From the UHGV virus genome UHGV-0072520: a stretch of 12,477 bases of DNA. One strand, 5' to 3'. Below, in pieces: positions 2,667 to 12,427 of this stretch (its first letter is position 1; the number at the start of each line of letters is the position of its first letter). Origin of the DNA: a virus. The notes under the pieces are model-generated. The model did no database searches, was not told where the DNA came from, and saw only the letters and a list, made by a program, of their open reading frames with translations. The position numbers were made by a program, and so were the translations under genes.

Positions 2667-4628
2667 TCACCAGTCTGCTAAAACTATCGCCCCACGCATA
2701 AATGCACGGTAAAAAGGAGATTCCCCTGCAGGGAAGCTGAAATGGAGAACTGGTGCTTCCCCAACAGCGTAATAATCTTCCGGTTTGAATCCAAACATAA
2801 ACGTTTGGCTTGAAGAAAGAGTCACACTTGCAATATCTTGATAGCGAATACCGTCTTTGCTTTTACCCATAAGAAAAAGTCCGTTTATAGGATTCCCGCC
2901 ATTAAGATTGGATATCTCAAGCCAAGCCCCTACGCCCTTACTGTAGCTACTGCAAAGACATAGAGATGCATCAGAAGTTTTAAAAGCAACTCCACTGACA
3001 TCGACTCCTTGCTGGGTGGTTTCATGGTCCCCATCACCAGAGCCACTTAATATCCTAGTTGGCCATGCATTCTTCGTAATTGTCTGGTCACTTGAGCTTG
3101 GATCCGCAGGCATAACATCCTTAAGCAATTCCTGTAGTGGCCAATGTTTACCACTGCCGGCTCCACCAAATAGATAGGTCTTTGTTTTTAGCTGTCTTGG
3201 ATAAGACTTGGATGCTAGTTTAGTAACTAACTCTTGAAGTATTCGATTAGTGCGTATCCTGTCAGTAATACCTGGGTCAGCTTCACCATCCCATACAAAT
3301 GCACCAAAATTCCCATTGCCCGCAGCGCCAAATATTTCAGCGCCTCCAACTACCTGATCAATATCACCACTTATATTGCTTCCACTAAATAGAAACGCAC
3401 CAACTACAGGGATAACATTAGGAATTTCAGTCATTTTGGAAATTACACCAAAATCTAATCTCATTTTCACAAGATCGGCGTTAATTCTGGTTTGTAAATC
3501 TCCTGTTGCAGCAGTTGAATATGAGTTAACTAAAGCCAGATCATAATTTTTTGAATACCATTGATTGAACGGTCCGCCAGGAGGAAGTTGGCACACCATA
3601 AGCAATGTTTTGTTTGTAACACTACGAAGAGTTTCAATCTTTGCATCCTGATCTGCAACACTGATCCCTCTAGCGCCTGGCTCGTCATATACTGCATATG
3701 CTACAACCGCAGGATGAGTGTCTATGGATTTAACAAAACTTGGCAGATCAGATATAGCAAGCGGGTCTTGTTCGGTTCCGATAGAAACTTTTAGACCTGC
3801 TGTTAAAGCATTATCTAATAACTTAAACTTGTCGCCTTCATCATCTACAGAACCACTAAACCCCAAATAATGGTGGATACTATTAAATCCTAATTGCTTT
3901 ATAAATAACAACTCAGCCAAGTCATAAGCAGAGCTAACGTAACAAATTTTCACTTTTGCATCGAAAGATACATCTACTTCTGAAGTCGCTAATATTGATC
4001 CAAGATTGTAGCGAGTCGTGTTAATCTTAAAATTACCGATTAATTTCTGCCCCTTAGATTTCAGCTTTTTTGTGATTTTATACTCTTTGTCTTTGATTCC
4101 TACAACATCCTTCCCAGTATCAAATGCAGCCTGAATGGCGTCTGACCAATCATCATCAACAACAAGATTTGCATAATCTTCGATGTAAGCATATACATCA
4201 CTACGCTTATTAAGGTTGTCTATATCAGTCTGCTTTGCGGCCCCATTTACTAAATCCACACCACCAGGTGCAGCAAGCTCCTGTCTTAACTGATCAGGAT
4301 CGTACTTCAGCACATTAGGAAAATAGAATTGCTGTGCACCATACGCATCATAACCAGCCATAGAATGGCCTTGCACGGTAACGAATTTGGCAATCTGTCC
4401 GTTATATACAGGATAACCAGCAGCGTTAATGATGATTGGTTGAGAAACAGGAACGTGAGAGCCGTCTTCGTTCTCTATATAAACCTGAATCTGGTTTTCA
4501 GGATTTACCGGGTCCGTGTCAATTTTACCGATATAAATTTTGCCATTGGCTACGGCTTTAAAAGAACGCGCCATAGTGAAGAGTTGCGATGGCATTGATA
4601 CGATCACATTGGCTGTAATGTCTGTCAT
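2667..4628 (-). CDS. Tailspike protein: P22-type N-terminal head-binding domain, divergent C-terminal receptor-binding/depolymerase domain
   Basis: 653-aa ORF. The first ~115 aa ([13 protein letters not shown] ... [38 protein letters not shown] ... [13 protein letters not shown] ... NVLKYDPDQ) closely resemble the conserved head-binding domain of P22/Sf6/HK620 tailspikes as I recall them. The remainder is not recognisably the P22 endorhamnosidase. RBS GGAG lies 8 nt upstream of the ATG on the - strand. Confidence 0.85.
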
Positions 4629-4686
4629 TTAATTTGCTCCAGATACAAGGAATAGCCGCAGCATGGCTACGGTGAATTTTGGGCAT

Positions 4687-4709
4687 AAAAAAACCCAGCC
4701 GAAGCTGGG
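4687..4709 (-). terminator. Intrinsic terminator (- strand) upstream of the tailspike gene
   Basis: Stem cccagc / gctggg (4694-4699 and 4704-4709) with loop cgaa. Seven A's at 4687-4693 on the + strand give a U7 tract directly after the hairpin on the - strand. Confidence 0.5.
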
Positions 4710-4761
4710 TCGTTGCGTTGGTTATCTGTCAGTAGTTATGTACTGGCTGAAGGATTTGTAC

Positions 4762-4792
4762 AAAAAAACCACCTGACGGTGGGTTAATTTTT
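4762..4792. terminator. Putative bidirectional intrinsic terminator
   Basis: Stem ccacc / ggtgg (4769-4773 and 4778-4782) with loop tgac, flanked by an A7 run upstream (4762-4768) and ttaattttt downstream (4784-4792), so either strand gets a U-rich tail. Confidence 0.45.
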
Positions 4793-4810
4793 GCATTTAC
4801 CTGGGCCATA

Positions 4811-4839
4811 TTGACTACTTATAAAATGAGATCAATATT
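4811..4839 (+). promoter_or_regulatory. Candidate sigma70 promoter for the small + strand gene
   Basis: TTGACT (4811-4816), 17-nt spacer, AATATT (4834-4839); the -35 matches consensus at 5 of 6 positions and the -10 at 4 of 6. Lies about 35 nt upstream of the ATG at 4876. By-eye match only. Confidence 0.3.
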
Positions 4840-4875
4840 TAATCGCCCAATAATGGGTGTATGTTGAGGTATATC

Positions 4876-5055
4876 ATGGCGAAAAAACCAGGTGAAAACA
4901 CAGGAAAAAACGGCGGAATATACCAAGAAGTTGGCCCACGCGGCGGTAAGAAAGACAATTTTGCCACCGTCAAGGACAACGAAAGGCTTCCACCAACAAC
5001 AAAGCCAGGTCATGGCTGGGTATTGGATAAGCGAACTCCAGACAGCAAAAAGTAA
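4876..5055 (+). CDS. Small YjzC-like protein (function unknown)
   Basis: 59-aa ORF MAKKPGENTGKNGGIYQEVGPRGG ... LPPTTKPGHGWVLDKRTP. The G-x-Y-x-E-V-G ... W ... KRTP pattern resembles the YjzC-like small-protein family as I recall it. GAGG RBS 5 nt upstream of the ATG at 4876 (the ORF track's upstream ATG at 4861 lacks an RBS). A terminator follows. Confidence 0.5.
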   Translation: MAKKPGENTGKNGGIYQEVGPRGGKKDNFATVKDNERLPPTTKPGHGWVLDKRTPDSKK

Positions 5056-5061
5056 TAATCA

Positions 5062-5084
5062 AGCCGGGTCACTCCGGCTTTTTG
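5062..5084 (+). terminator. Intrinsic terminator after the YjzC-like gene
   Basis: Stem agccgg / ccggct (5062-5067 and 5074-5079) with loop gtcact, followed by a T5 run. It overlaps the 3' end of the convergent - strand gene, so it may serve both. Confidence 0.55.
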
Positions 5085-5434
5085 ATATGTCGCTCGCAGA
5101 ACTCAACAAGCCTGCTCATTAAGTAGCAGTAAGTCTCGTTGGCTCTTCCTGGTTCAACATCAACACCTACCCTTGAGCAGATATCGAATGCCATGTGAGC
5201 GCACTCATGGGCAATAGTAGATAGTTTGCCATTGAACACGCCTATCACATGCAAAACACCATTCTCGCTACTCATTGTATGAGACGCTCCGTTGGCGTCC
5301 GAGTCATGCACGTCAACGCCAAGTTTTTGATGCAGGCGTTGCCATTCTGGAAAGTCTCTACAAAACACAATTGTACCGCTCTCAAAGAGCGGAACGAGCA
5401 TCTTTGGTACGTTTCCAATGTTAACTTTTTTCAT
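5069..5434 (-). CDS. Hypothetical protein with HExxH zinc-metallopeptidase-like motif
   Basis: 121-aa ORF containing IAHECAHMAFD (H-E-x-x-H) followed by several Cys/His residues (DICS, YCY, FCERH) that could complete a metal site. AGGA RBS 4 nt upstream of the ATG on the - strand. No family assignment possible without a search. Confidence 0.55.
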   Translation of the reverse strand: MKKVNIGNVPKMLVPLFESGTIVFCRDFPEWQRLHQKLGVDVHDSDANGASHTMSSENGVLHVIGVFNGKLSTIAHECAHMAFDICSRVGVDVEPGRANETYCYLMSRLVEFCERHIKKPE

Positions 5435-5468
5435 GGTATCCTGCGCAAAACTAAGGAGAGTTAATTAT

Positions 5469-5954
5469 ATGAAAAAACCACTGTTAATTATCCCGCTTCT
5501 GCTGGCTGGGTGCGCAAAAGTAAGCGACTATCAGGCAAGTTGCGAGCAACGCTATCCAAAGCTTAGCGATATGGCTAATTGCCTTGATGCCAGCTTGAAG
5601 AACGACTCTCGCATGGCATCAGCACCAACACCTAAGCTGTATGTCCTTGCTGCGAAGATGCTCGGGCAAGGTGTCGATGAAGGCAAGATAAGTGACACAC
5701 AGGCAAGACTTGAACTTCAGAATCTTTATGTTCAATTACAAAGCCAAGAACAAGCACAACAAATAGCACAAAGCCAAGCATTCCAGCAGGCTTTATTGAA
5801 TTATCAGGCTGTAAACACAATGCAAGCGATCGAGCAAAAAGCGCGCCAGCCTGTTATAACTCAACCTTACCCAACACGCGTTGACACATATACAAACTGC
5901 AATTCAGGATTTGGAAACACGGTAACATGCAACAGTAGCAGTAATATCAGGTAG
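5469..5954 (+). CDS. Prophage-encoded lipoprotein, predicted outer-membrane localisation
   Basis: N-terminus MKKPLLIIPLLLAGC has a classic signal peptide plus LAGC lipobox, and Ala at +2 argues against inner-membrane retention. GGAG RBS about 10 nt upstream of the ATG at 5469 (the ORF-track start at 5418 adds an unlikely extension with no RBS). Gln-rich predicted helical middle; 161 aa. Confidence 0.7.
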   Translation: MKKPLLIIPLLLAGCAKVSDYQASCEQRYPKLSDMANCLDASLKNDSRMASAPTPKLYVLAAKMLGQGVDEGKISDTQARLELQNLYVQLQSQEQAQQIAQSQAFQQALLNYQAVNTMQAIEQKARQPVITQPYPTRVDTYTNCNSGFGNTVTCNSSSNIR

Positions 5955-5968
5955 TTACATCTTATCTT

Positions 5969-7816
5969 TTATTGCTGTTCTGCTGTAATTTGGCTTGAAA
6001 GTATAGGGCGTATCGCATTTGCAGCATTATTTAGCGCTCTTTCATAGGCTGGTGTTCCTGCTTTGGTGTTTGCCAAACGTAAGAGAGCATTCCTTGCTGC
6101 TTTTGACTCATACAAGCGCATCATTGCACCGAAACCAGCCTCAAGCCCCATTGATACGCCAAGAGTCGCAGTTGCGCCAATCGTCCTTATCCTGTTGGCT
6201 TGCGATTGCCCCGTCTGAGTTACTACATTTGCGGTGTCTGACCTTGCTGTTTGCTGTAGAACTTCATGAAGAGAATCAAGCTCTTTCATGTGCTTTCCAG
6301 AAAAAATAGTGTTGTAAATTTCACCGCCTGACTGAGATTTCAGCTTATTAACTTCAGTGATGAACTTGGCTGGAGAGTCCCCGGCCTTTTCCGCTATTTT
6401 GCTGACGTAAGCTGCACGCATAGCATCTTTCCCCTTATCATCCAGTGCGCTCCAGATTCGTTTCACGTCAGATGGTTTTCTGCTTAATACAACGGTATTT
6501 ATAAGTTCAGGACTGGCTTCACTGCTTGCCTTGTTGAGCTTGTTGGCAATGTTTTTATTAAGCACCTTATTATAAACGTTTGCATAATCGGAATTTGCTT
6601 TAAGGTATTTTGCTGCGTCTGATGCACCGAGGTTTTTAGCAACTGCGTTACGAAGGTCTTTTGACATTGCATTCTCTACCATATTGGTAGCTGCTTTTGC
6701 CTGGTTGGGGAAGACCATAGCATCTCCCTGAACATTAGATCTAAATGCTGTTCTGTGCTGACGCAAGAGATCAAACGTAACATCCAAATCAGTTGCAGGG
6801 TTTGCTAATTCTTCACGTAGGTTACGCAAGGATGTAAGCAGGCTTTGATTGGCAGACGTCCCAAGCCGTTCCTGTCTTGCGATCGCTGTATTCAGAGCAT
6901 TCATGGTATTTGTTGTATCAACTGCGGCATTACCCATTTTATTGGTGACGTCATTGATAACAGCGCCAGCGGCATCCTTCCGTCCCCTTAACGTGGTGGT
7001 CAGAGATTTCACCACATCATCAGGGTTGTACTCACCAAAACGGTCAAAATAATTACTTACCAGTTTACTACGCGTTGCATATTGCTCCGCTCGCTTTGAT
7101 CCTGTCCCGAGCAAAGCCCCCTCGGCATCCTGAGTAAGGCCGCGAGTGAAAGCATTTTTCGGTGGGATGACATCAGATGTCATTGGCGTCACACCCATTG
7201 ATTCTGAGGTGGCAATTTTTTTCGCTACTTCTGGCGCGATATCGCCTTTTATAGCCGTTATTCCACGCCCTATTCCCTTTGCTGCTGCGGAAAGAACACC
7301 CTGAGCGGCAAGGTTAACTCCGGCATTTTTAGCTGCATTTTGTGCGAAATCGCCTTTCTGATTTGCGGCCTCTGCCAGTGAGCCAATAGCCATGCTTCCT
7401 GCCGTTCCAACTCCTGGAACTAAATACCCGCCAATTGTTTCTCCAGCTTGCGCATAAGGGTCTGTCGGTCGATCGACAGGGCGATAAACATCATCCAAAA
7501 CCTTGGGGCCACCAAGCCCCTGGCTGATTGCATTAATCAGACTTGCGCCACCCTGCAATACGTCAAATGGTATGTTTACCAGACCACGACCAGCCTGTTC
7601 TGCAATTTGCCCTGCACTTTGACCACCAGTGAGCCAATCGCCAGCTTGTTGCATCAATGATGGTTCTTCCCGTGTTGGTGCATTATTGGCCTGATTAACT
7701 GTTTGTTGCTGAACAGCCTGACCAGCAAAATACTCATCAATGGCGGTGCCAATATCTTCGGTGCTCGTACCATCAGGAAAGGTAAATGTCTTACCGTTTG
7801 CAGTTACTTTCATCAT
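5969..7816 (-). CDS. Ejection (DNA-transfer/injection) protein, P22 gp16-like
   Basis: 615-aa Ala/Gly/Gln-rich ORF without obvious enzymatic motifs, upstream of and co-oriented with the tailspike, matching the position and approximate size of P22 gene 16. Start overlaps the upstream stop (ATGA at 7813-7816). Assignment is by synteny and composition, not verified homology. Confidence 0.6.
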
Positions 7817-8805
7817 TCCACCGTAAATTGAATGCCTGATTTTGAGGTATATGATCCGGATTGACTCTGCTGCTGTTGGGTATTTGTCGGTTGTTGGTTA
7901 TTGCTCTGTTGTTGACTATTTGCAGCACTTGAAACCACCAAAGCATCATAAACGCGACCAGACTGACCACGTAATGAGTTATATTGGCCCTGCATTTTTC
8001 GCATTTTTGTTTCAGTAGCAGCCTTGGAATCACCAGGCTGAGGCAGGTACATTTTGGAATACTCCTGCATCTCTGGCAGAGTAATTGCTGCACCTGTTTC
8101 TGGGCGCAAAATTGCATACAAGGCGTCTCTCGCATTTACCATATATTGCTGCTCCGCTGGTGATAGGCTTAAATTTGCAATAGTCCCATCACCAAGAGAG
8201 CGATTTATTAATGCAACTCGCTTAGGGTCAATGCTTTTACTAAGCTGATTCATTGAGTCCATTGAATCTTTTAATCGCAAAGCAAATCCTGCCGCCTTCT
8301 TGGAACCCTCATTAGCCTTATCTATGATGCTTTGCGCTTGTGGCAAACTAATTGGTTTAATGCCATCACCAGATATAGGTTGGTTTAGTTTTCCGGCTTC
8401 CTCGCTGCCATCGGTGTAATACTTAGTTACCGAGCCATCAGGATTGGTTTCAACCTTAAGTAATTTCTTAGCATTGGGATTAATTCCCGCCGCTGCCGCA
8501 AATGCCGCTGCACCATCTGGATCCGCCTTTAACATTTGCGCGTACTGATTGTAATTCTGCATTGCGACTGTTGGTGCATATGCTGACGTTAACGCATTTG
8601 CTCGGCTAATATCCTGCCCTCTCGCCTGAAGTGCCTCGCCAGCCTGATTGCTGCGGATTGTCTCTGCCAGTCTGCCTCGGTCAATCTCACGACCAGCCAT
8701 CTTGTCCTGAACAGCAAACGCCTTTTCTGGTCCAAGCGCACCGAGAGACATAGTAGTCAGCATGTGTGATAGCTGCTCTGGATTCTGGATACCTGTCTGA
8801 ATCAT
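7813..8805 (-). CDS. Ejection protein, P22 gp20-like, apparently missing its 5' end
   Basis: 330-aa ORF from the first ATG, but the frame stays open upstream to 8919 with no start codon, which suggests the N-terminal coding part was deleted. Translationally coupled to the gp16-like gene. Assignment is by synteny. Confidence 0.5.
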
Positions 8806-8835
8806 CCAGTCAGCATTAGCACCAACGCGATTTAA

Positions 8836-9192
8836 CCTGTCCTTGTTGTCAGTAATGAATTTACTGTAGGCTTCCGGTCCCTGAGAAAGAGCGACGTTAC
8901 CGTAATAGTCCCCTGTCGGTTAGGGAAGCTGCGTGTTGAGCTGGAAGCAACAGAGAACAACCTCATTGATAGTGAATGCCATGTTGCTGAACTGGAAGAA
9001 GCACTACGCGACAAGCAGGCGTTACTTGAAGCCTCAGAAAAGCGCATAGCAGAACAAAGCTCGATTGTTACAGCCGCTGAAAAACTGGTTCGCTGTAAAG
9101 GCCGCTATCACAGTGAGCAAAACTATCGTGCGCTGGCTGCATTGTTTGGCGTAACAGTGCCGGATTTACCACCACTGCAAGCAGATGATTAA
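8836..9192 (+). pseudogene. 3' fragment of an early-region gene (coiled-coil C-terminus), no start codon
   Basis: Open frame 8836-9189 with no ATG/GTG/TTG start. It encodes ...KLRVELEATENNLIDSECHVAELEEALRDKQALLEASEKRIAEQ...LFGVTVPDLPPLQADD and ends 10 nt before the next gene with operon-like spacing (AAGGA RBS at 9191-9195). Confidence 0.35.
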
Positions 9193-9202
9193 GGACTAAC
9201 CT

Positions 9203-11076: not shown

Positions 11077-11268
11077 ATGACCGATACCAGCCTGATTCCT
11101 GAGAAAGAAGTGATGAACAAGCTCGGTGTTTCATCACGTCAGACAATCTGGAACTATACCAAACGGCACGGATTTCCGAAGCCAGTCAGAACCCACCCCA
11201 AATCATACCTTCGTGAAGCTGTTGAGGGGTGGATTCTTAACGGTGGCGTTAATCAGAAATGCTCCTGA
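11077..11268 (+). CDS. AlpA-family phage transcriptional regulator / putative excisionase (HTH)
   Basis: 63-aa ORF MTDTSLIPEKEVMNKLGVSSRQTIWNYTKRHGFPKPV..., typical of AlpA/Xis-like small HTH proteins next to P4-type integrases. GGAG RBS at 11065-11068. Confidence 0.75.
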   Translation: MTDTSLIPEKEVMNKLGVSSRQTIWNYTKRHGFPKPVRTHPKSYLREAVEGWILNGGVNQKCS

Positions 11269-12427
11269 TGTGCCAGAACAATTTATCAGCGTGAAGCTCA
11301 TACGCTTTGCGCTGAGCCTCTATCCAGTCGTGTTTATTGTATACGGACATTATCCCGCCAAGTTCATGACCGAGCATTCGCTCAGTAACATGAGGCTCGA
11401 CATTCATCTCGGACAGACGTGTAACAAGCGTTCTTCTGAAATCATGTGTTCGCCAGTAACCTATATCCATCCCTCCCCTTATTCTATTTACGAATCGGTT
11501 GGCTGCAGCGATGCTGATCGGTTTGTTTATGTCTTCTCCAGGGAAAAGAACATCATTGTACGTTGTCATGGCCTTTTCGAGGAAAGGCTTAATTTGTTCG
11601 AAGATTGGACGGCGGATAACATTACCCATCTTGCTATGCTCTTTCGGTACGGTCCATACGTTTTCCAGCAGGTCAAATTCTGTCTTTTTTGCCAGCCTAA
11701 GCTCTGAGAGCCTCGCCCCCCACATCATAAGCATCTGATGAAGTAGCTTATTTGACGTAGACGCACGGCTTCTTTCAATAGCAAGCCAAATCTTAGCCAG
11801 TTCGTGATACGACAGTACCCGATCCCCTACCTCAGCGCGGGAGCCGAAGTCCCTTGGTTGGATGCTCATAATTGCGCAACTATCTATCAACTGACGCCGC
11901 ATGCACCAACTTATTGCTGACCTTAGTTGACTTAGCACCTGCCTTGCTCGGCGTGGATTATCTCTTTCTTCTTCGGTAAGCAGGTCAACCCATTGCTTAA
12001 CCGTGATAGAAGATGCCGGACGATTAGGAAAGGCGTCATGCATGCGCTTCATAACCGTTGATCGGTAAAGTGCCTGGGTCTTTTCTCTGAGAGTTGTAGA
12101 GACGTAGTTGTCGAACCAGTAGTCGAGACACTGGGCGACCGTCATGGAGTTCTCCACCTTCTCTTCAAAATAAGTGCGTGGATCCGTTCCTGAGAAATAG
12201 AGCTTTCGCAAGTCAGCAGTGATCTGTCTGGCATCCTTCAAAGACAGGGATGGGTATCGACCAAGCCCAAGTCGATTAGGCTTGCCATGCCAGCGATAGC
12301 GGTACTGGAACTGGATGACCCCCTTCGGTGAAATTCGTACGCTGAGGCCATCGGCATCAGCCACTTCTTGTGGGCCCGAATATGGTTTACCATAAATAGT
12401 ACGCAGTTTTGTGTCGCTTATAGCCAT
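11249..12427 (-). CDS. int: Tyrosine site-specific integrase, P4-type (DUF4102-like N-terminal arm-binding domain)
   Basis: 392 aa. N-terminus (SDTKLR ... DGLSVRISPKG ... YRYRWHGK ... LGLGRYPSLSLKDAR) fits the P4-family integrase pattern. C-terminal catalytic residues are visible: HDFRRT (H-x-x-R) and the tyrosine in MSVYNKHDW. Confidence 0.92.
   Translation of the reverse strand: MAISDTKLRTIYGKPYSGPQEVADADGLSVRISPKGVIQFQYRYRWHGKPNRLGLGRYPSLSLKDARQITADLRKLYFSGTDPRTYFEEKVENSMTVAQCLDYWFDNYVSTTLREKTQALYRSTVMKRMHDAFPNRPASSITVKQWVDLLTEEERDNPRRARQVLSQLRSAISWCMRRQLIDSCAIMSIQPRDFGSRAEVGDRVLSYHELAKIWLAIERSRASTSNKLLHQMLMMWGARLSELRLAKKTEFDLLENVWTVPKEHSKMGNVIRRPIFEQIKPFLEKAMTTYNDVLFPGEDINKPISIAAANRFVNRIRGGMDIGYWRTHDFRRTLVTRLSEMNVEPHVTERMLGHELGGIMSVYNKHDWIEAQRKAYELHADKLFWHIRSISD

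What the first reader, a model, noticed from the sequence alone, without database searches (positions are those of the whole stretch)
5069..5434. Small HExxH-motif protein at the position where P22 carries its immI antirepressor module
A 121-aa ORF carries a textbook H-E-x-x-H motif (AHECAH) with downstream Cys/His, sits between the ejection-protein genes and the tailspike, and has the same orientation as the late genes. In P22 this slot holds sieA and the mnt/arc/ant module. A minimal zinc peptidase here could be a protease-type antirepressor or another host/phage-targeting effector; at 121 aa it is shorter than typical ImmA/IrrE peptidases, so it may be a distinct family.
Basis: partly seen in the sequence, partly recalled or inferred. 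Interest (0 to 1): 0.65.

Follow-up and report, generated by a model that had tools for sequence, protein, structure and literature searches.

The report
P22/HK620 hkcC: small putative zinc protease
The ORF is real and is the known but uncharacterised phage gene hkcC, which phage P22 itself also carries; it belongs to a large family of about 120-residue phage proteins with the invariant zinc-protease signature HExxH plus a downstream glutamate, so it is probably a minimal metalloprotease made late in infection, and nothing links it to repressor cleavage.

Summary
The 121-aa ORF (5434→5069, minus strand, co-directional with the ejection and tailspike genes) is a genuine gene. Among 37 DNA alleles from P22-like phages, 30 of 32 variable sites are third-codon positions, and 29 changes are synonymous against 3 non-synonymous.

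It is hkcC of phage HK620 (99% aa identity). P22 carries the same ORF intact at 98% nt identity, between sieA and orf59a/mnt. It therefore flanks the immI module rather than replacing it.

No Pfam, NCBIfam or PADLOC model matches. It falls in PHROG 1365 ("unknown function"). An exhaustive profile search found 517 clusters, nearly all stand-alone proteins of 108–140 aa.

Across 127 diverse members only H76, E77, H80 and E100 are invariant. The His-to-Glu spacing equals thermolysin's.

AlphaFold2 (pLDDT 89) gives the minimal zincin layout: β-sheet, backing helix, HExxH helix, Glu helix. Matches to solved structures and curated families are all sub-significant, though nearly all are zincins.

In other phages the gene usually sits directly upstream of the small terminase, next to lysis genes, and not beside a repressor.

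Best reading: a late-expressed, cytoplasmic, gluzincin-type accessory peptidase with unknown substrate. The antirepressor idea is unsupported.

The parts
5069..5434 (-). hkcC coding sequence (121 aa, 13.6 kDa, pI 6.4, no signal peptide or TM segment)
   Evidence: ORF list. 99.2% aa identity to HK620 hkcC AAK28904.1. PHROG 1365, E=1.7e-39. Purifying selection. Hydropathy and pI.
5195..5209 (-). Codons for H76-E77-C78-A79-H80, the HExxH motif on predicted helix 71-88
   Evidence: H76, E77 and H80 are invariant in 127 homologues. Helix assignment from the AF2 model. Coordinate.
5123..5140 (-). Codons for N99-E100-T-Y-C-Y104. E100 is the invariant candidate third zinc ligand, at the start of predicted helix 100-116.
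   Evidence: E100 100%, Y104 94%, C103 80%, N99 72% conserved. 18-19 residues lie between H80 and E100 in 118/127 members. phmmer aligns this segment with thermolysin's GAINEAISD.
5439..5442 (-). AGGA ribosome-binding site, 4 nt upstream of the ATG
   Evidence: Read directly from the sequence.
5061..5080 (.). Hairpin shared by the convergent 3' ends of hkcC and orf59a. It equals HK620 'tORF59A' and P22 't mnt'. A T-tract follows only on the + strand, so it should stop orf59a transcripts but not late-direction transcripts.
   Evidence: Terminator scan. Annotations in HK620 and P22-pbi.
4861..5055 (+). orf59a/HkcD (YjzC-like, 64 aa), the convergent neighbour and a possible functional partner
   Evidence: PHROG 3202; Pfam YjzC below threshold. 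The same convergent pairing occurs in 4 of 23 non-redundant family contexts, in three further kinds of phage region besides the P22-type slot.

Best explanation
hkcC encodes a stand-alone, soluble, cytoplasmic zinc metallohydrolase of the gluzincin type, most likely an endopeptidase. H76 and H80 on the active-site helix and E100 on the following helix would hold one Zn2+. E77 would act as the general base. The strand pair 49-66 ending in the conserved G-V-F-[DN]-G would bind the substrate backbone.

It is a dispensable accessory ('moron') gene embedded co-directionally in phage late operons. It would be made late in lytic growth by read-through late transcription, to cleave a protein target in the infected cell. 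The substrate is unknown; a host protein is the most likely class.

Shown: it is a gene under purifying selection; it is P22/HK620 hkcC; the four catalytic-type residues are invariant; the predicted fold is zincin-like; the late-operon context recurs.

Inferred: zinc binding, peptidase activity, late expression, and the nature of the target.

In this particular window the gene sits in a deleted prophage remnant that lacks the late promoter region. Here it is probably silent cargo.
For: 1. It is a real gene: 29 synonymous against 3 non-synonymous changes, 30 of 32 variable sites at codon position 3, no stops in 83 loci.

2. The family is large: 517 clusters at E<=1e-3 and 143 at <=1e-10, nearly all 108-140 aa.

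3. The only 100% invariant columns in 127 members are H76, E77, H80 and E100. Y104, one turn after E100, is 94% conserved. The H-to-E spacing of 18-19 residues in 118/127 members equals thermolysin's H146..E166.

4. The AF2 model has pLDDT 89.3 and pTM 0.83. Its order is beta, beta, helix, beta, beta, helix (HExxH), helix (E100). This matches the published description of the zincin MPTase core (PMC5512222).

5. All 9 PDB sequence hits of the family profile are zincins (myroilysin, BMP1/tolloid, peptidyl-Lys metalloendopeptidase), at E 0.04-0.6. The single sequence hits thermolysin and neutral protease with HExxH and NE aligned.

7. 33 of 127 members give sub-threshold hits to Pfam SprT-like. 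Several other weak hits are also zincins: DUF5700, M50B, DA1, M48, reprolysin, DUF4344.

8. hhalign against an ArdC MPTase-PolyVal profile gives 73% probability, against 0.1% for reversed controls. One distant member is named 'PolyVal Metallopeptidase superfamily domain' in NCBI nr.

9. Context: the gene is co-directional with late genes in the window. Within 3 genes either side in 23 non-redundant family contexts there are 12 large-terminase and 11 small-terminase hits, plus lysozyme, holin, Rz and portal. The gene often ends 2-4 nt before terS.

10. No sigma-70-like promoter was found on the minus strand between 4600 and 6000. The hairpin at its 3' end has no T-tract in the late direction.

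11. No TM segment or signal peptide.

Against: DSSP puts E100 at the very first residue of its helix, whereas thermolysin's E166 lies about six residues into its helix (from my memory of the structure). The geometry may therefore differ.

In the hhalign match to ArdC the catalytic Glu of ArdC is not aligned with E100.

There are no expression, zinc-binding, activity or phenotype data for hkcC. Five papers that treat P22-like phages or this region were checked, and none gives a function.

Some HExxH folds hydrolyse non-peptide substrates.
Confidence: 0.6

Rival explanations
1. ImmA/IrrE-type protease antirepressor. HkcC would cleave a phage repressor (c2, Mnt or Arc) or another immunity protein to flip the lysis-lysogeny switch.
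For: It lies next to the immI module in P22-like phages. The hkcC-orf59a pair travels with an arc/ant-like unit in a Xenorhabdus siphovirus-type prophage, and with a small regulator (phrog_3887) in a Pasteurellaceae prophage. ImmA/IrrE proteins are also HExxH...E proteases. BFVD lists 'IrrE protein' entries, but only at E 0.04-0.09.
Against: No Peptidase_M78 hit for the query. It is not among the 25 most frequent weak Pfam matches of the 127 members, and only one member tested separately scored E 0.099. The family's dominant neighbours are terminase and lysis genes, and no repressor family is among the 25 most frequent neighbour families in 23 contexts. hkcC persists where mnt/arc/ant are deleted, as in this window and HK620. 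It is also present in phages that look lytic. It is oriented with late genes, which is the wrong timing for a switch.
Confidence: 0.05
2. SprT/Wss1/SPRTN-like DNA-associated protease. It would remove proteins covalently or tightly bound to phage DNA, for example ahead of the packaging motor.
For: 33 of 127 members give weak Pfam SprT-like hits. The top Foldseek PDB hit is SPRTN. Two BFVD neighbours are named SprT-like. The gene often sits immediately upstream of the terminase genes. Four longer members have Lys-rich C-terminal tails.
Against: All hits are below threshold. hhalign against an enterobacterial SprT profile gives only 13%. The residue at the SprT third-His position is His in only 2 of 127 members. 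There is no zinc ribbon. HkcC has pI 6.4 and the family median is 6.0, so it is not a basic DNA binder.
Confidence: 0.1
3. A solo version of the 'polyvalent-protein' MPTase. It would be a protease packaged in the virion or acting at entry. It would either process co-injected proteins or cleave a host defence protein in the next host.
For: The core fold description matches (PMC5512222). A distant member is labelled PolyVal metallopeptidase. hhalign against ArdC MPTase-PolyVal gives 73%. The gene lies directly after the ejection-protein genes in P22-like phages. In other phages it lies next to head or adaptor genes.
Against: No member reaches the Pfam PF18818 threshold. The P1 DdrB MPTase scores only 2 bits. 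The catalytic Glu is not aligned in the ArdC comparison. From established knowledge, the well-studied P22 virion proteome has no such component.
Confidence: 0.12
4. A zincin-fold protein that is not a peptidase. It could be a metal-dependent hydrolase of a small molecule or nucleotide, or a non-catalytic zinc-binding adaptor.
For: No peptidase family membership could be shown. From general knowledge, some HExxH proteins of this size class have non-peptide substrates.
Against: The general-base Glu77 is invariant, which argues for catalysis. Nearly all weak sequence and structure neighbours are peptidases.
Confidence: 0.1
5. Not a gene. The stretch would be only the regulatory spacer holding the sieA promoter and mnt terminator, as annotated in the P22 RefSeq record.
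For: P22 records NC_002371.2 and AF527608 annotate only a promoter and a terminator here.
Against: Strong third-position bias and 29:3 synonymous to non-synonymous changes. There are 517 homologous clusters with invariant motif residues down to 23% identity with the query. The predicted fold is confident.
Confidence: 0.01

Closest known systems
hkcC of coliphage HK620 (AAK28904.1) and the same ORF in Salmonella phage P22
   Same: It is the same gene. It shares 99.2% aa identity (one substitution, H43Q). It has the same position between gene 16 and the tailspike, and the same convergent orf59a neighbour and shared hairpin.
   Different: In this window the upstream exclusion-gene slot holds a lipoprotein instead of sieA (P22) or hkcB (HK620). 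As in HK620, mnt/arc/ant are deleted. [quoted passage not shown]
Gluzincins of the thermolysin type (HExxH + Glu; MEROPS clan MA(E))
   Same: HExxH on a helix, an invariant Glu 20 residues after the second His, and Asn before that Glu (NE, as in thermolysin NEAISD). A conserved residue lies four positions after the Glu (Y104 against D170). phmmer aligns both motifs.
   Different: It has only 121 aa and no C-terminal domain. E-values are 0.09-0.7 and not significant. The Glu sits at the first residue of its predicted helix.
Zincin-like MPTase of phage/plasmid polyvalent proteins (Pfam PF18818 MPTase-PolyVal; ArdC C-terminal domain; Iyer et al. 2017, PMC5512222)
   Same: The described core is the same: a three-stranded sheet, an N-terminal helix, an HExxH helix and a Glu helix. 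Both occur in mobile elements and in phage late-gene contexts. One distant family member is labelled this way in NCBI nr. hhalign gives 73%, E 3e-5.
   Different: It is stand-alone rather than part of a multidomain protein. It is below the Pfam threshold. The catalytic Glu is not aligned in the hhalign match. The P1 DdrB clade is unrelated at sequence level.
SprT-like / SPRTN / Wss1 (Pfam PF10263)
   Same: This is the most frequent weak Pfam match (33 of 127 members). SPRTN is the top Foldseek PDB hit.
   Different: There is no third His at +6 after HExxH (2 of 127), no zinc ribbon, and near-neutral pI. hhalign gives 13%. All scores are below the gathering cut-off.
Minigluzincins (proabylysin/projannalysin, MEROPS M95); comparison recalled from memory of López-Pelegrín et al. 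2013, not read here
   Same: Soluble proteins of about 105-120 residues consisting of little more than a sheet, a backing helix, an HExxH helix and a Glu helix.
ImmA/IrrE (Pfam Peptidase_M78, COG2856)
   Same: A small cytoplasmic HExxH...E protease of mobile elements.
   Different: No profile match. No adjacent Xre-type repressor. The context is late-operon.
PF18894 PhageMetallopep (uncharacterised)
   Same: An uncharacterised phage HExxH protein found just upstream of terminase genes.
   Different: hhalign gives 2%. In L090 and L161 it occurs in tandem with the hkcC-like gene, so the two are different proteins.

Membership tests
HK620/P22 hkcC (PHROG 1365) | Full-length sequence match to the family profile and to the named gene | tested here: met
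   phrog_1365 E=1.7e-39 over residues 1-121. 99.2% aa identity to HK620 hkcC and to the P22 ORF.
HK620/P22 hkcC (PHROG 1365) | Synteny: between gene 16 plus an exclusion gene and orf59a/immI/tailspike, on the late strand | tested here: met
Gluzincin (thermolysin-like zincin) | HExxH motif on an alpha-helix | tested here: met
   H76-E77-x-x-H80 invariant in 127 members. Predicted helix 71-88.
Gluzincin (thermolysin-like zincin) | Third zinc ligand is a Glu on the next helix, at least about 18 residues downstream | tested here: met
   E100 invariant. 18-19 intervening residues in 118/127 members. Helix 100-116. This holds at the level of sequence and secondary structure only.
Gluzincin (thermolysin-like zincin) | His, His and Glu side chains converge on one metal site in 3D | not testable with these tools
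   Structure prediction returns no coordinates.
Gluzincin (thermolysin-like zincin) | Significant sequence or structure similarity to a characterised member | tested here: inconclusive
Gluzincin (thermolysin-like zincin) | Zinc binding and peptidase activity | not testable with these tools
   Requires biochemistry.
MPTase-PolyVal (PF18818, ArdC-type) | Score above the Pfam gathering cut-off | tested here: not met
   PF18818 does not appear for the query, among the families listed for the 127 members, or for 8 members scanned at E<=10. R388 ArdC scores 164.8 bits as a positive control.
MPTase-PolyVal (PF18818, ArdC-type) | Profile-profile homology covering the active site | tested here: inconclusive
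   hhalign 73%, E 3e-5, 44 columns; reversed control 0.1%. ArdC's Glu helix falls in an insertion and is not aligned to E100.
SprT-like (PF10263) | Score above the Pfam gathering cut-off (25.6 bits) | tested here: not met
   Best E 1e-4. 33 of 127 members hit only at E<=1. The two member hits whose scores were listed reached 15.4 and 15.7 bits.
SprT-like (PF10263) | Third ligand His in HExxHxxxxxH (from knowledge of SprT/Wss1/SPRTN) | tested here: not met
   Position 86 is Leu in 74, Cys in 40 and His in 2 of 127 members.
ImmA/IrrE (Peptidase_M78) | Profile match to PF06114 | tested here: not met
   No hit for the query at E<=1. It is not among the 25 most frequent weak Pfam matches of the 127 members. 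One member tested separately scored E 0.099.
ImmA/IrrE (Peptidase_M78) | Adjacent cognate HTH repressor (ImmR/Xre type) | tested here: not met
   The recurrent neighbour families within 3 genes either side in 23 contexts are terminase, lysozyme, holin, Rz and portal.
Minigluzincins (M95) | Detectable sequence or fold similarity to proabylysin/projannalysin | tested here: not met
PhageMetallopep (PF18894) | Profile match | tested here: not met
   No Pfam hit. hhalign 2% against a bona fide member.

The most novel reading that the evidence does not exclude
HkcC and the convergent, prophage-expressed Orf59a (YjzC-like) form a mobile two-gene cassette with opposite expression programmes. Orf59a would be made in the lysogen from the mnt-type promoter. 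HkcC would be a solo zinc protease made only from late read-through. HkcC would cleave either Orf59a or a host or competitor-phage protein. Examples are a defence factor triggered by terminase, portal or capsid proteins, or incoming ejection proteins. HkcC may also be carried into the next host with the ejection proteins. This would be a new class of phage-encoded proteolytic counter-defence or exclusion effector, present in the model phage P22.
Probability: 0.12. Interest if true: 0.7.

Novelty: new variant of a known kind. Interest (0 to 1): 0.4.

Why it matters
P22 and HK620 are model phages, yet this conserved gene has no CDS annotation in the P22 reference record (NC_002371.2), and it has no known function. 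The analysis gives hkcC a concrete, testable biochemical identity as a minimal HExxH...E zinc hydrolase. It also shows that hkcC represents a family of more than 500 sequence clusters, missing from Pfam and NCBIfam, that recurs at the lysis/packaging junction of many phages.

If active, it would be one of the smallest zincin peptidases known. It could be a tractable entry point to a late-acting phage protease function such as counter-defence, host takeover or packaging hygiene. The experiments are simple, since P22 genetics and E77A point mutants are readily available.

The finding is still an uncharacterised member of a very well-known enzyme superfamily. Small phage zincins have been noted before (Iyer et al. 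2017; Pfam PF18894). A specialist would be interested rather than astonished.

Tried and rejected
1. The P22 pid ORFan. I suspected hkcC might be the 'unannotated late-region moron' pid. It is not: pid lies between orf25 and orf80 and opposes the late promoter (PMC8835761).

2. BTP1 and P22 transcriptome paper (PMC7067206). It holds no data on this region; BTP1 lacks it.

3. Literature searches for hkcC, phage SprT/metalloprotease anti-defence, and phage HExxH counter-defence. No functional study was found.

4. PADLOC. No defence-system match for hkcC, orf59a or the lipoprotein.

5. The afdb50 fold library was unavailable. BFVD was used instead.

6. The search for related loci with the deep alignment A2 failed because no conserved stretch was long enough. 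With A1 it returned only 99-100% identical P22-like loci. A3 gave the diverse set.

7. hhalign of the family profile against single sequences of E. coli SprT (4%), PhageMetallopep (2%) and ArdC (13%) was uninformative. hmmsearch against P1 DdrB gave 2 bits.

8. The SprT profile built from the homologue search was too shallow (Neff about 2) to be a fair test.

9. Cys/His as metal ligands: rejected on conservation.

10. Antirepressor neighbourhood enrichment: not seen among the top neighbour families.

11. Model coordinates are not stored in the sandbox, so no distance measurement was possible.
Full report
**What is there**

The window carries a 121-codon ATG-to-stop ORF at 5069..5434 on the minus strand. 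An AGGA ribosome-binding site lies 4 nt upstream (sequence). The ORF is on the same strand as the P22-type tailspike (2667..4628; Pfam Head_binding 1.1e-65). It is also on the same strand as a gp16-type DNA-transfer protein (5969..7816; phrog_770) and a 5'-truncated gp20-type ejection protein (7813..8805). Residues 75-80 read AHECAH. HExxH occurs nowhere else in the 7,256 residues of six-frame stop-free segments of at least 60 aa.

**Is it a gene?**

Yes. I collected the homologous stretch from 83 P22-like loci (three annotated phage records and 80 IMG/VR contigs). There are 37 distinct DNA alleles and 32 variable sites. Thirty sites are third-codon positions. Twenty-nine changes are synonymous and three are non-synonymous, and no allele has an internal stop. 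The protein also has homologues sharing as little as 23% identity that keep the same length and motifs.

**Which gene?**

Megablast against phage records shows window 4629-5462 is 97.8% identical to coliphage HK620. There the ORF is annotated hkcC, 'unknown'.

Window 4746-5462 is also 98% identical to Salmonella phage P22 itself. In P22-pbi and the RefSeq record no CDS is annotated at this position, only the 'sieA promoter' and 'mnt terminator'. The ORF is nevertheless intact in P22, with a single H43Q difference. It is annotated as a hypothetical protein in many P22-like genomes. [quoted passage not shown] The UAB_Phi20 gene table lists hkcC, 121 aa, 'Unknown' (PMC4837284).

So the ORF does not occupy the place of immI. 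It is the conserved flank of immI. In the collected P22-like loci it coexists with mnt, arc and/or ant in most cases. In this window, as in HK620, mnt/arc/ant are deleted and only the last 31 nt of mnt and two terminator remnants remain.

**Family and conserved residues**

No Pfam, NCBIfam or PADLOC model matches. The only family hit is PHROG 1365, 'unknown function' (1.7e-39).

A filter-free profile search of 1.84 billion representative proteins found 517 clusters at E<=1e-3 and 143 at <=1e-10. Of the 127 members aligned, nearly all are stand-alone proteins of 108-140 aa.

In that alignment of 127 diverse members (23-73% identical to the query), the only invariant columns are H76, E77, H80 and E100. 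G49 is 99% conserved, Y104 94%, F67 and G90 90%, C103 80% and N99 72%. The other cysteines (C25, C78, C86) are 28-31% conserved. Only 30 of 127 members have any His within 12 residues after H80.

The number of residues between H80 and E100 is 18-19 in 118 of 127 members. This is the thermolysin spacing (H146...E166). phmmer against PDB sequences aligns the query's HECAH and GRANETYCY with thermolysin's HELTH and GAINEAISD, although at E 0.09-0.7.

**Structure**

AlphaFold2 with a 20-sequence alignment gives a confident model (mean pLDDT 89.3, pTM 0.83). Its elements are strands 11-13 and 21-25, helix 28-37, strands 49-56 and 59-66, helix 71-88 carrying HExxH, and helix 100-116 starting at E100.

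This is the minimal zincin layout described by Iyer et al. (PMC5512222). [quoted passage not shown] The first C-terminal helix carries HExxH and the second carries the Glu.

Searches against solved structures gave nothing significant, although zincins recur among the hits.
- The top Foldseek PDB hit is the SPRTN protease at E 0.2.
- The family profile hits only zincins in PDB sequences (myroilysin, BMP1/tolloid, peptidyl-Lys metalloendopeptidase) at E 0.04-0.6.

Against predicted viral structures (BFVD) there are 26 matches at E<=1e-3 and TM up to 0.82. They come from Pseudomonas, Ralstonia, Erwinia, Achromobacter, Eggerthella, Serratia, Escherichia and Salmonella phages. Nearly all are 'uncharacterized'; three are named 'SprT-like' or 'Metalloprotease'.

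I could not measure His/His/Glu distances, because model coordinates are not exposed.

**Nearest curated families**

Scanning all 127 members against Pfam at E<=1, 33 touch SprT-like (best 1e-4, all below threshold). A handful touch other zincin families: DUF5700, M50B, DA1-like, M48, reprolysin and DUF4344.

The SprT/Wss1-type third His (HExxHxxxxxH) is absent. That position is Leu in 74, Cys in 40 and His in 2 of 127 members. hhalign against an admittedly shallow SprT profile gives 13%.

One distant member (DAQ46550.1) is named 'PolyVal Metallopeptidase superfamily domain' in NCBI nr. I built a profile of the ArdC MPTase-PolyVal domain from R388 ArdC, which scores 164.8 bits to PF18818. hhalign against the family profile gives 73% probability and E 3e-5, against 0.1% for reversed controls. 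However, ArdC's Glu helix falls in an insertion and is not aligned to E100.

P1 DdrB's MPTase (2 bits), PhageMetallopep PF18894 (2%) and Peptidase_M78 (no hit for the query) are not close.

Conclusion: this is a distinct, uncurated family inside the zincin superfamily. It has a gluzincin-type signature and is perhaps nearest to the mobile-element MPTases.

**Genomic context of the family**

I clustered hkcC-like genes from 94 diverse loci into 23 non-redundant subfamilies. The recurrent neighbours within three genes either side are:
- large terminase (12 hits) and small terminase (11 hits);
- lysozyme (5), holin (4) and Rz (2);
- portal proteins.

The typical arrangement is endolysin, Rz spanin, one or two small ORFs, the hkcC-like gene, then terS and terL. 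All are co-directional, and often only 2-4 nt separate the hkcC-like gene from terS.

P22 relatives such as L, ST64T, ST104 and ε34 carry a 38-40% identical paralogue (Orf129, gene 70) upstream of terS. ST160, SE1, Phi75 and UAB_Phi20 each show two matching places, which probably means they carry both copies; I did not inspect the second place.

Other positions include:
- after ribonucleotide reductase and before terL in a lytic-looking contig;
- between major capsid and adaptor genes;
- between major tail and tape-measure genes.

No repressor family is among the 25 most frequent neighbour families. The common denominator is placement inside late operons at module junctions, which is typical of accessory 'moron' genes.

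In the window no sigma-70-like promoter is predicted on the minus strand between 4600 and 6000. The hairpin at the 3' end (5061-5080) has a T-tract only in the opposite direction. This fits expression by late read-through. Established P22 knowledge is that the late transcript runs through this region to gene 9.

**A possible partner**

The convergent 64-aa orf59a (YjzC-like, phrog_3202; 4861..5055) shares the hairpin with hkcC. The same convergent pair recurs in several places:
- in GCA_002000435.1 (hkcC 43%, orf59a 55% identity);
- in a Xenorhabdus hominickii siphovirus-type prophage between tail genes (63% and 75%);
- in a Pasteurellaceae lambdoid prophage right after O/P-like replication genes (46% and 64%);
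- in Enterobacter hormaechei next to an integrase.

That is 4 of 23 subfamilies, in three further kinds of phage region besides the P22-type slot, and orf59a is always the more conserved of the two. This suggests a mobile two-gene cassette and possibly a functional link. Most family members lack orf59a, so it is not required for the family's core function.

**Mechanism proposed**

HkcC is a soluble protein (no TM segment, pI 6.4) and a zinc-dependent gluzincin-type hydrolase, most likely an endopeptidase. It would be made late in infection, and its substrate is unknown. I put this at about 0.6.

The more specific readings each get 0.05-0.12: a repressor-cleaving antirepressor, a SprT-like DNA-associated protease, and a virion-delivered or processing MPTase of the polyvalent-protein kind. 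The antirepressor reading is the least supported, because of the family's contexts and the lack of any M78 signal.

In this window the gene lies in a roughly 12.4-kb deleted prophage remnant running gtrABC, tailspike, orf59a, hkcC, lipoprotein, gp16, truncated gp20, early-left genes, int. The remnant lacks the lysis, head and packaging genes. The best partial matches are E. coli genomes. Here the gene is most likely unexpressed cargo.

**Novelty and interest**

The ORF itself is known and named. Its assignment to a zincin family with an HExxH...E signature, the size of that family, and its terminase-proximal context are not in the annotations or in the five relevant papers I checked.

It is a new variant (an uncurated family) of a very well-known kind of enzyme. 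I rate interest as moderate (0.4). It is a clean, cheap hypothesis to test in a model phage, but it is not a surprise in kind, and there is no functional evidence yet.

Noticed in passing
window 5469-5954 (+): A 161-aa lipoprotein gene (lipobox LLAGC; phrog_6067, unknown function). It occupies the slot and orientation of P22 sieA and HK620 hkcB, 35 bp from the hkcC start and divergent from it. The same gene fills this slot in 19 of the roughly 85 P22-like loci examined. It is likely a prophage-expressed exclusion or conversion gene driven by the promoter annotated as P-sieA inside the hkcC 5' end.
   Followed up: partly
window 7813-9202: The gene-20 (ejection protein) homologue lacks about its first 160 residues. 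It matches only phrog_917 positions 162-509 and Pfam Inj_translocase positions 151-217. It abuts early-left genes on the other strand (DUF551 and others). The whole window therefore looks like a roughly 12.4-kb deleted P22-like prophage remnant running from gtrABC to int.
   Followed up: partly
window 4861-5055 (+); L004, L088, L093, L099: orf59a/HkcD (YjzC-like) is convergent with hkcC and shares its terminator hairpin. The pair recurs in three further kinds of phage region. orf59a is always more conserved than hkcC: 75 against 63, 64 against 46, and 55 against 43% identity.
   Followed up: partly
window 4692-4711 and 4769-4782: Two terminator-like hairpins correspond to HK620's annotated 'remnant of ant' and 'remnant of mnt' terminators. 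Only the last 31 nt of mnt (4746-4776) survive, so immI has been deleted here as in HK620.
   Followed up: partly
L090 5355-5993; L161 4355-4993: In these prophages the hkcC-like gene is followed immediately by a second putative metallopeptidase gene (Pfam PF18894 PhageMetallopep, 1.4e-42), and then by terminase. That makes two different HExxH proteins in tandem.
   Followed up: no
phage records ST160, SE1, Phi75, UAB_Phi20; L, ST64T, ST104, ε34: A 38-40% identical paralogue (Orf129, gene 70, orf47) lies upstream of the small terminase gene in several P22-like phages. ST160, SE1, Phi75 and UAB_Phi20 each show two matching places, probably hkcC plus this paralogue; the second place was not inspected.
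   Followed up: partly
P22 RefSeq NC_002371.2 13861-14223 (equivalent to window 5072-5434): The reference P22 record has no CDS for hkcC. It annotates only a sieA promoter and an mnt terminator, although the ORF is intact and under purifying selection.
   Followed up: yes
window 11077-11268 (+) and 11249-12427 (-): A 63-aa ORF that looks like an AlpA/Xis-type protein by eye (no profile match confirmed this) overlaps the 3' end of the tyrosine integrase gene by 20 nt in convergent orientation. In P22, int and xis are co-directional.
   Followed up: no
window 2667-4628 (-): The tailspike has the P22-type head-binding domain (residues 1-113). Its receptor-binding part is different: the best PHROG is 'tail spike protein with colanic acid degradation activity', matching only residues 1-200. 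A gtrABC O-antigen glucosylation operon lies next to it at 50-2629.
   Followed up: no
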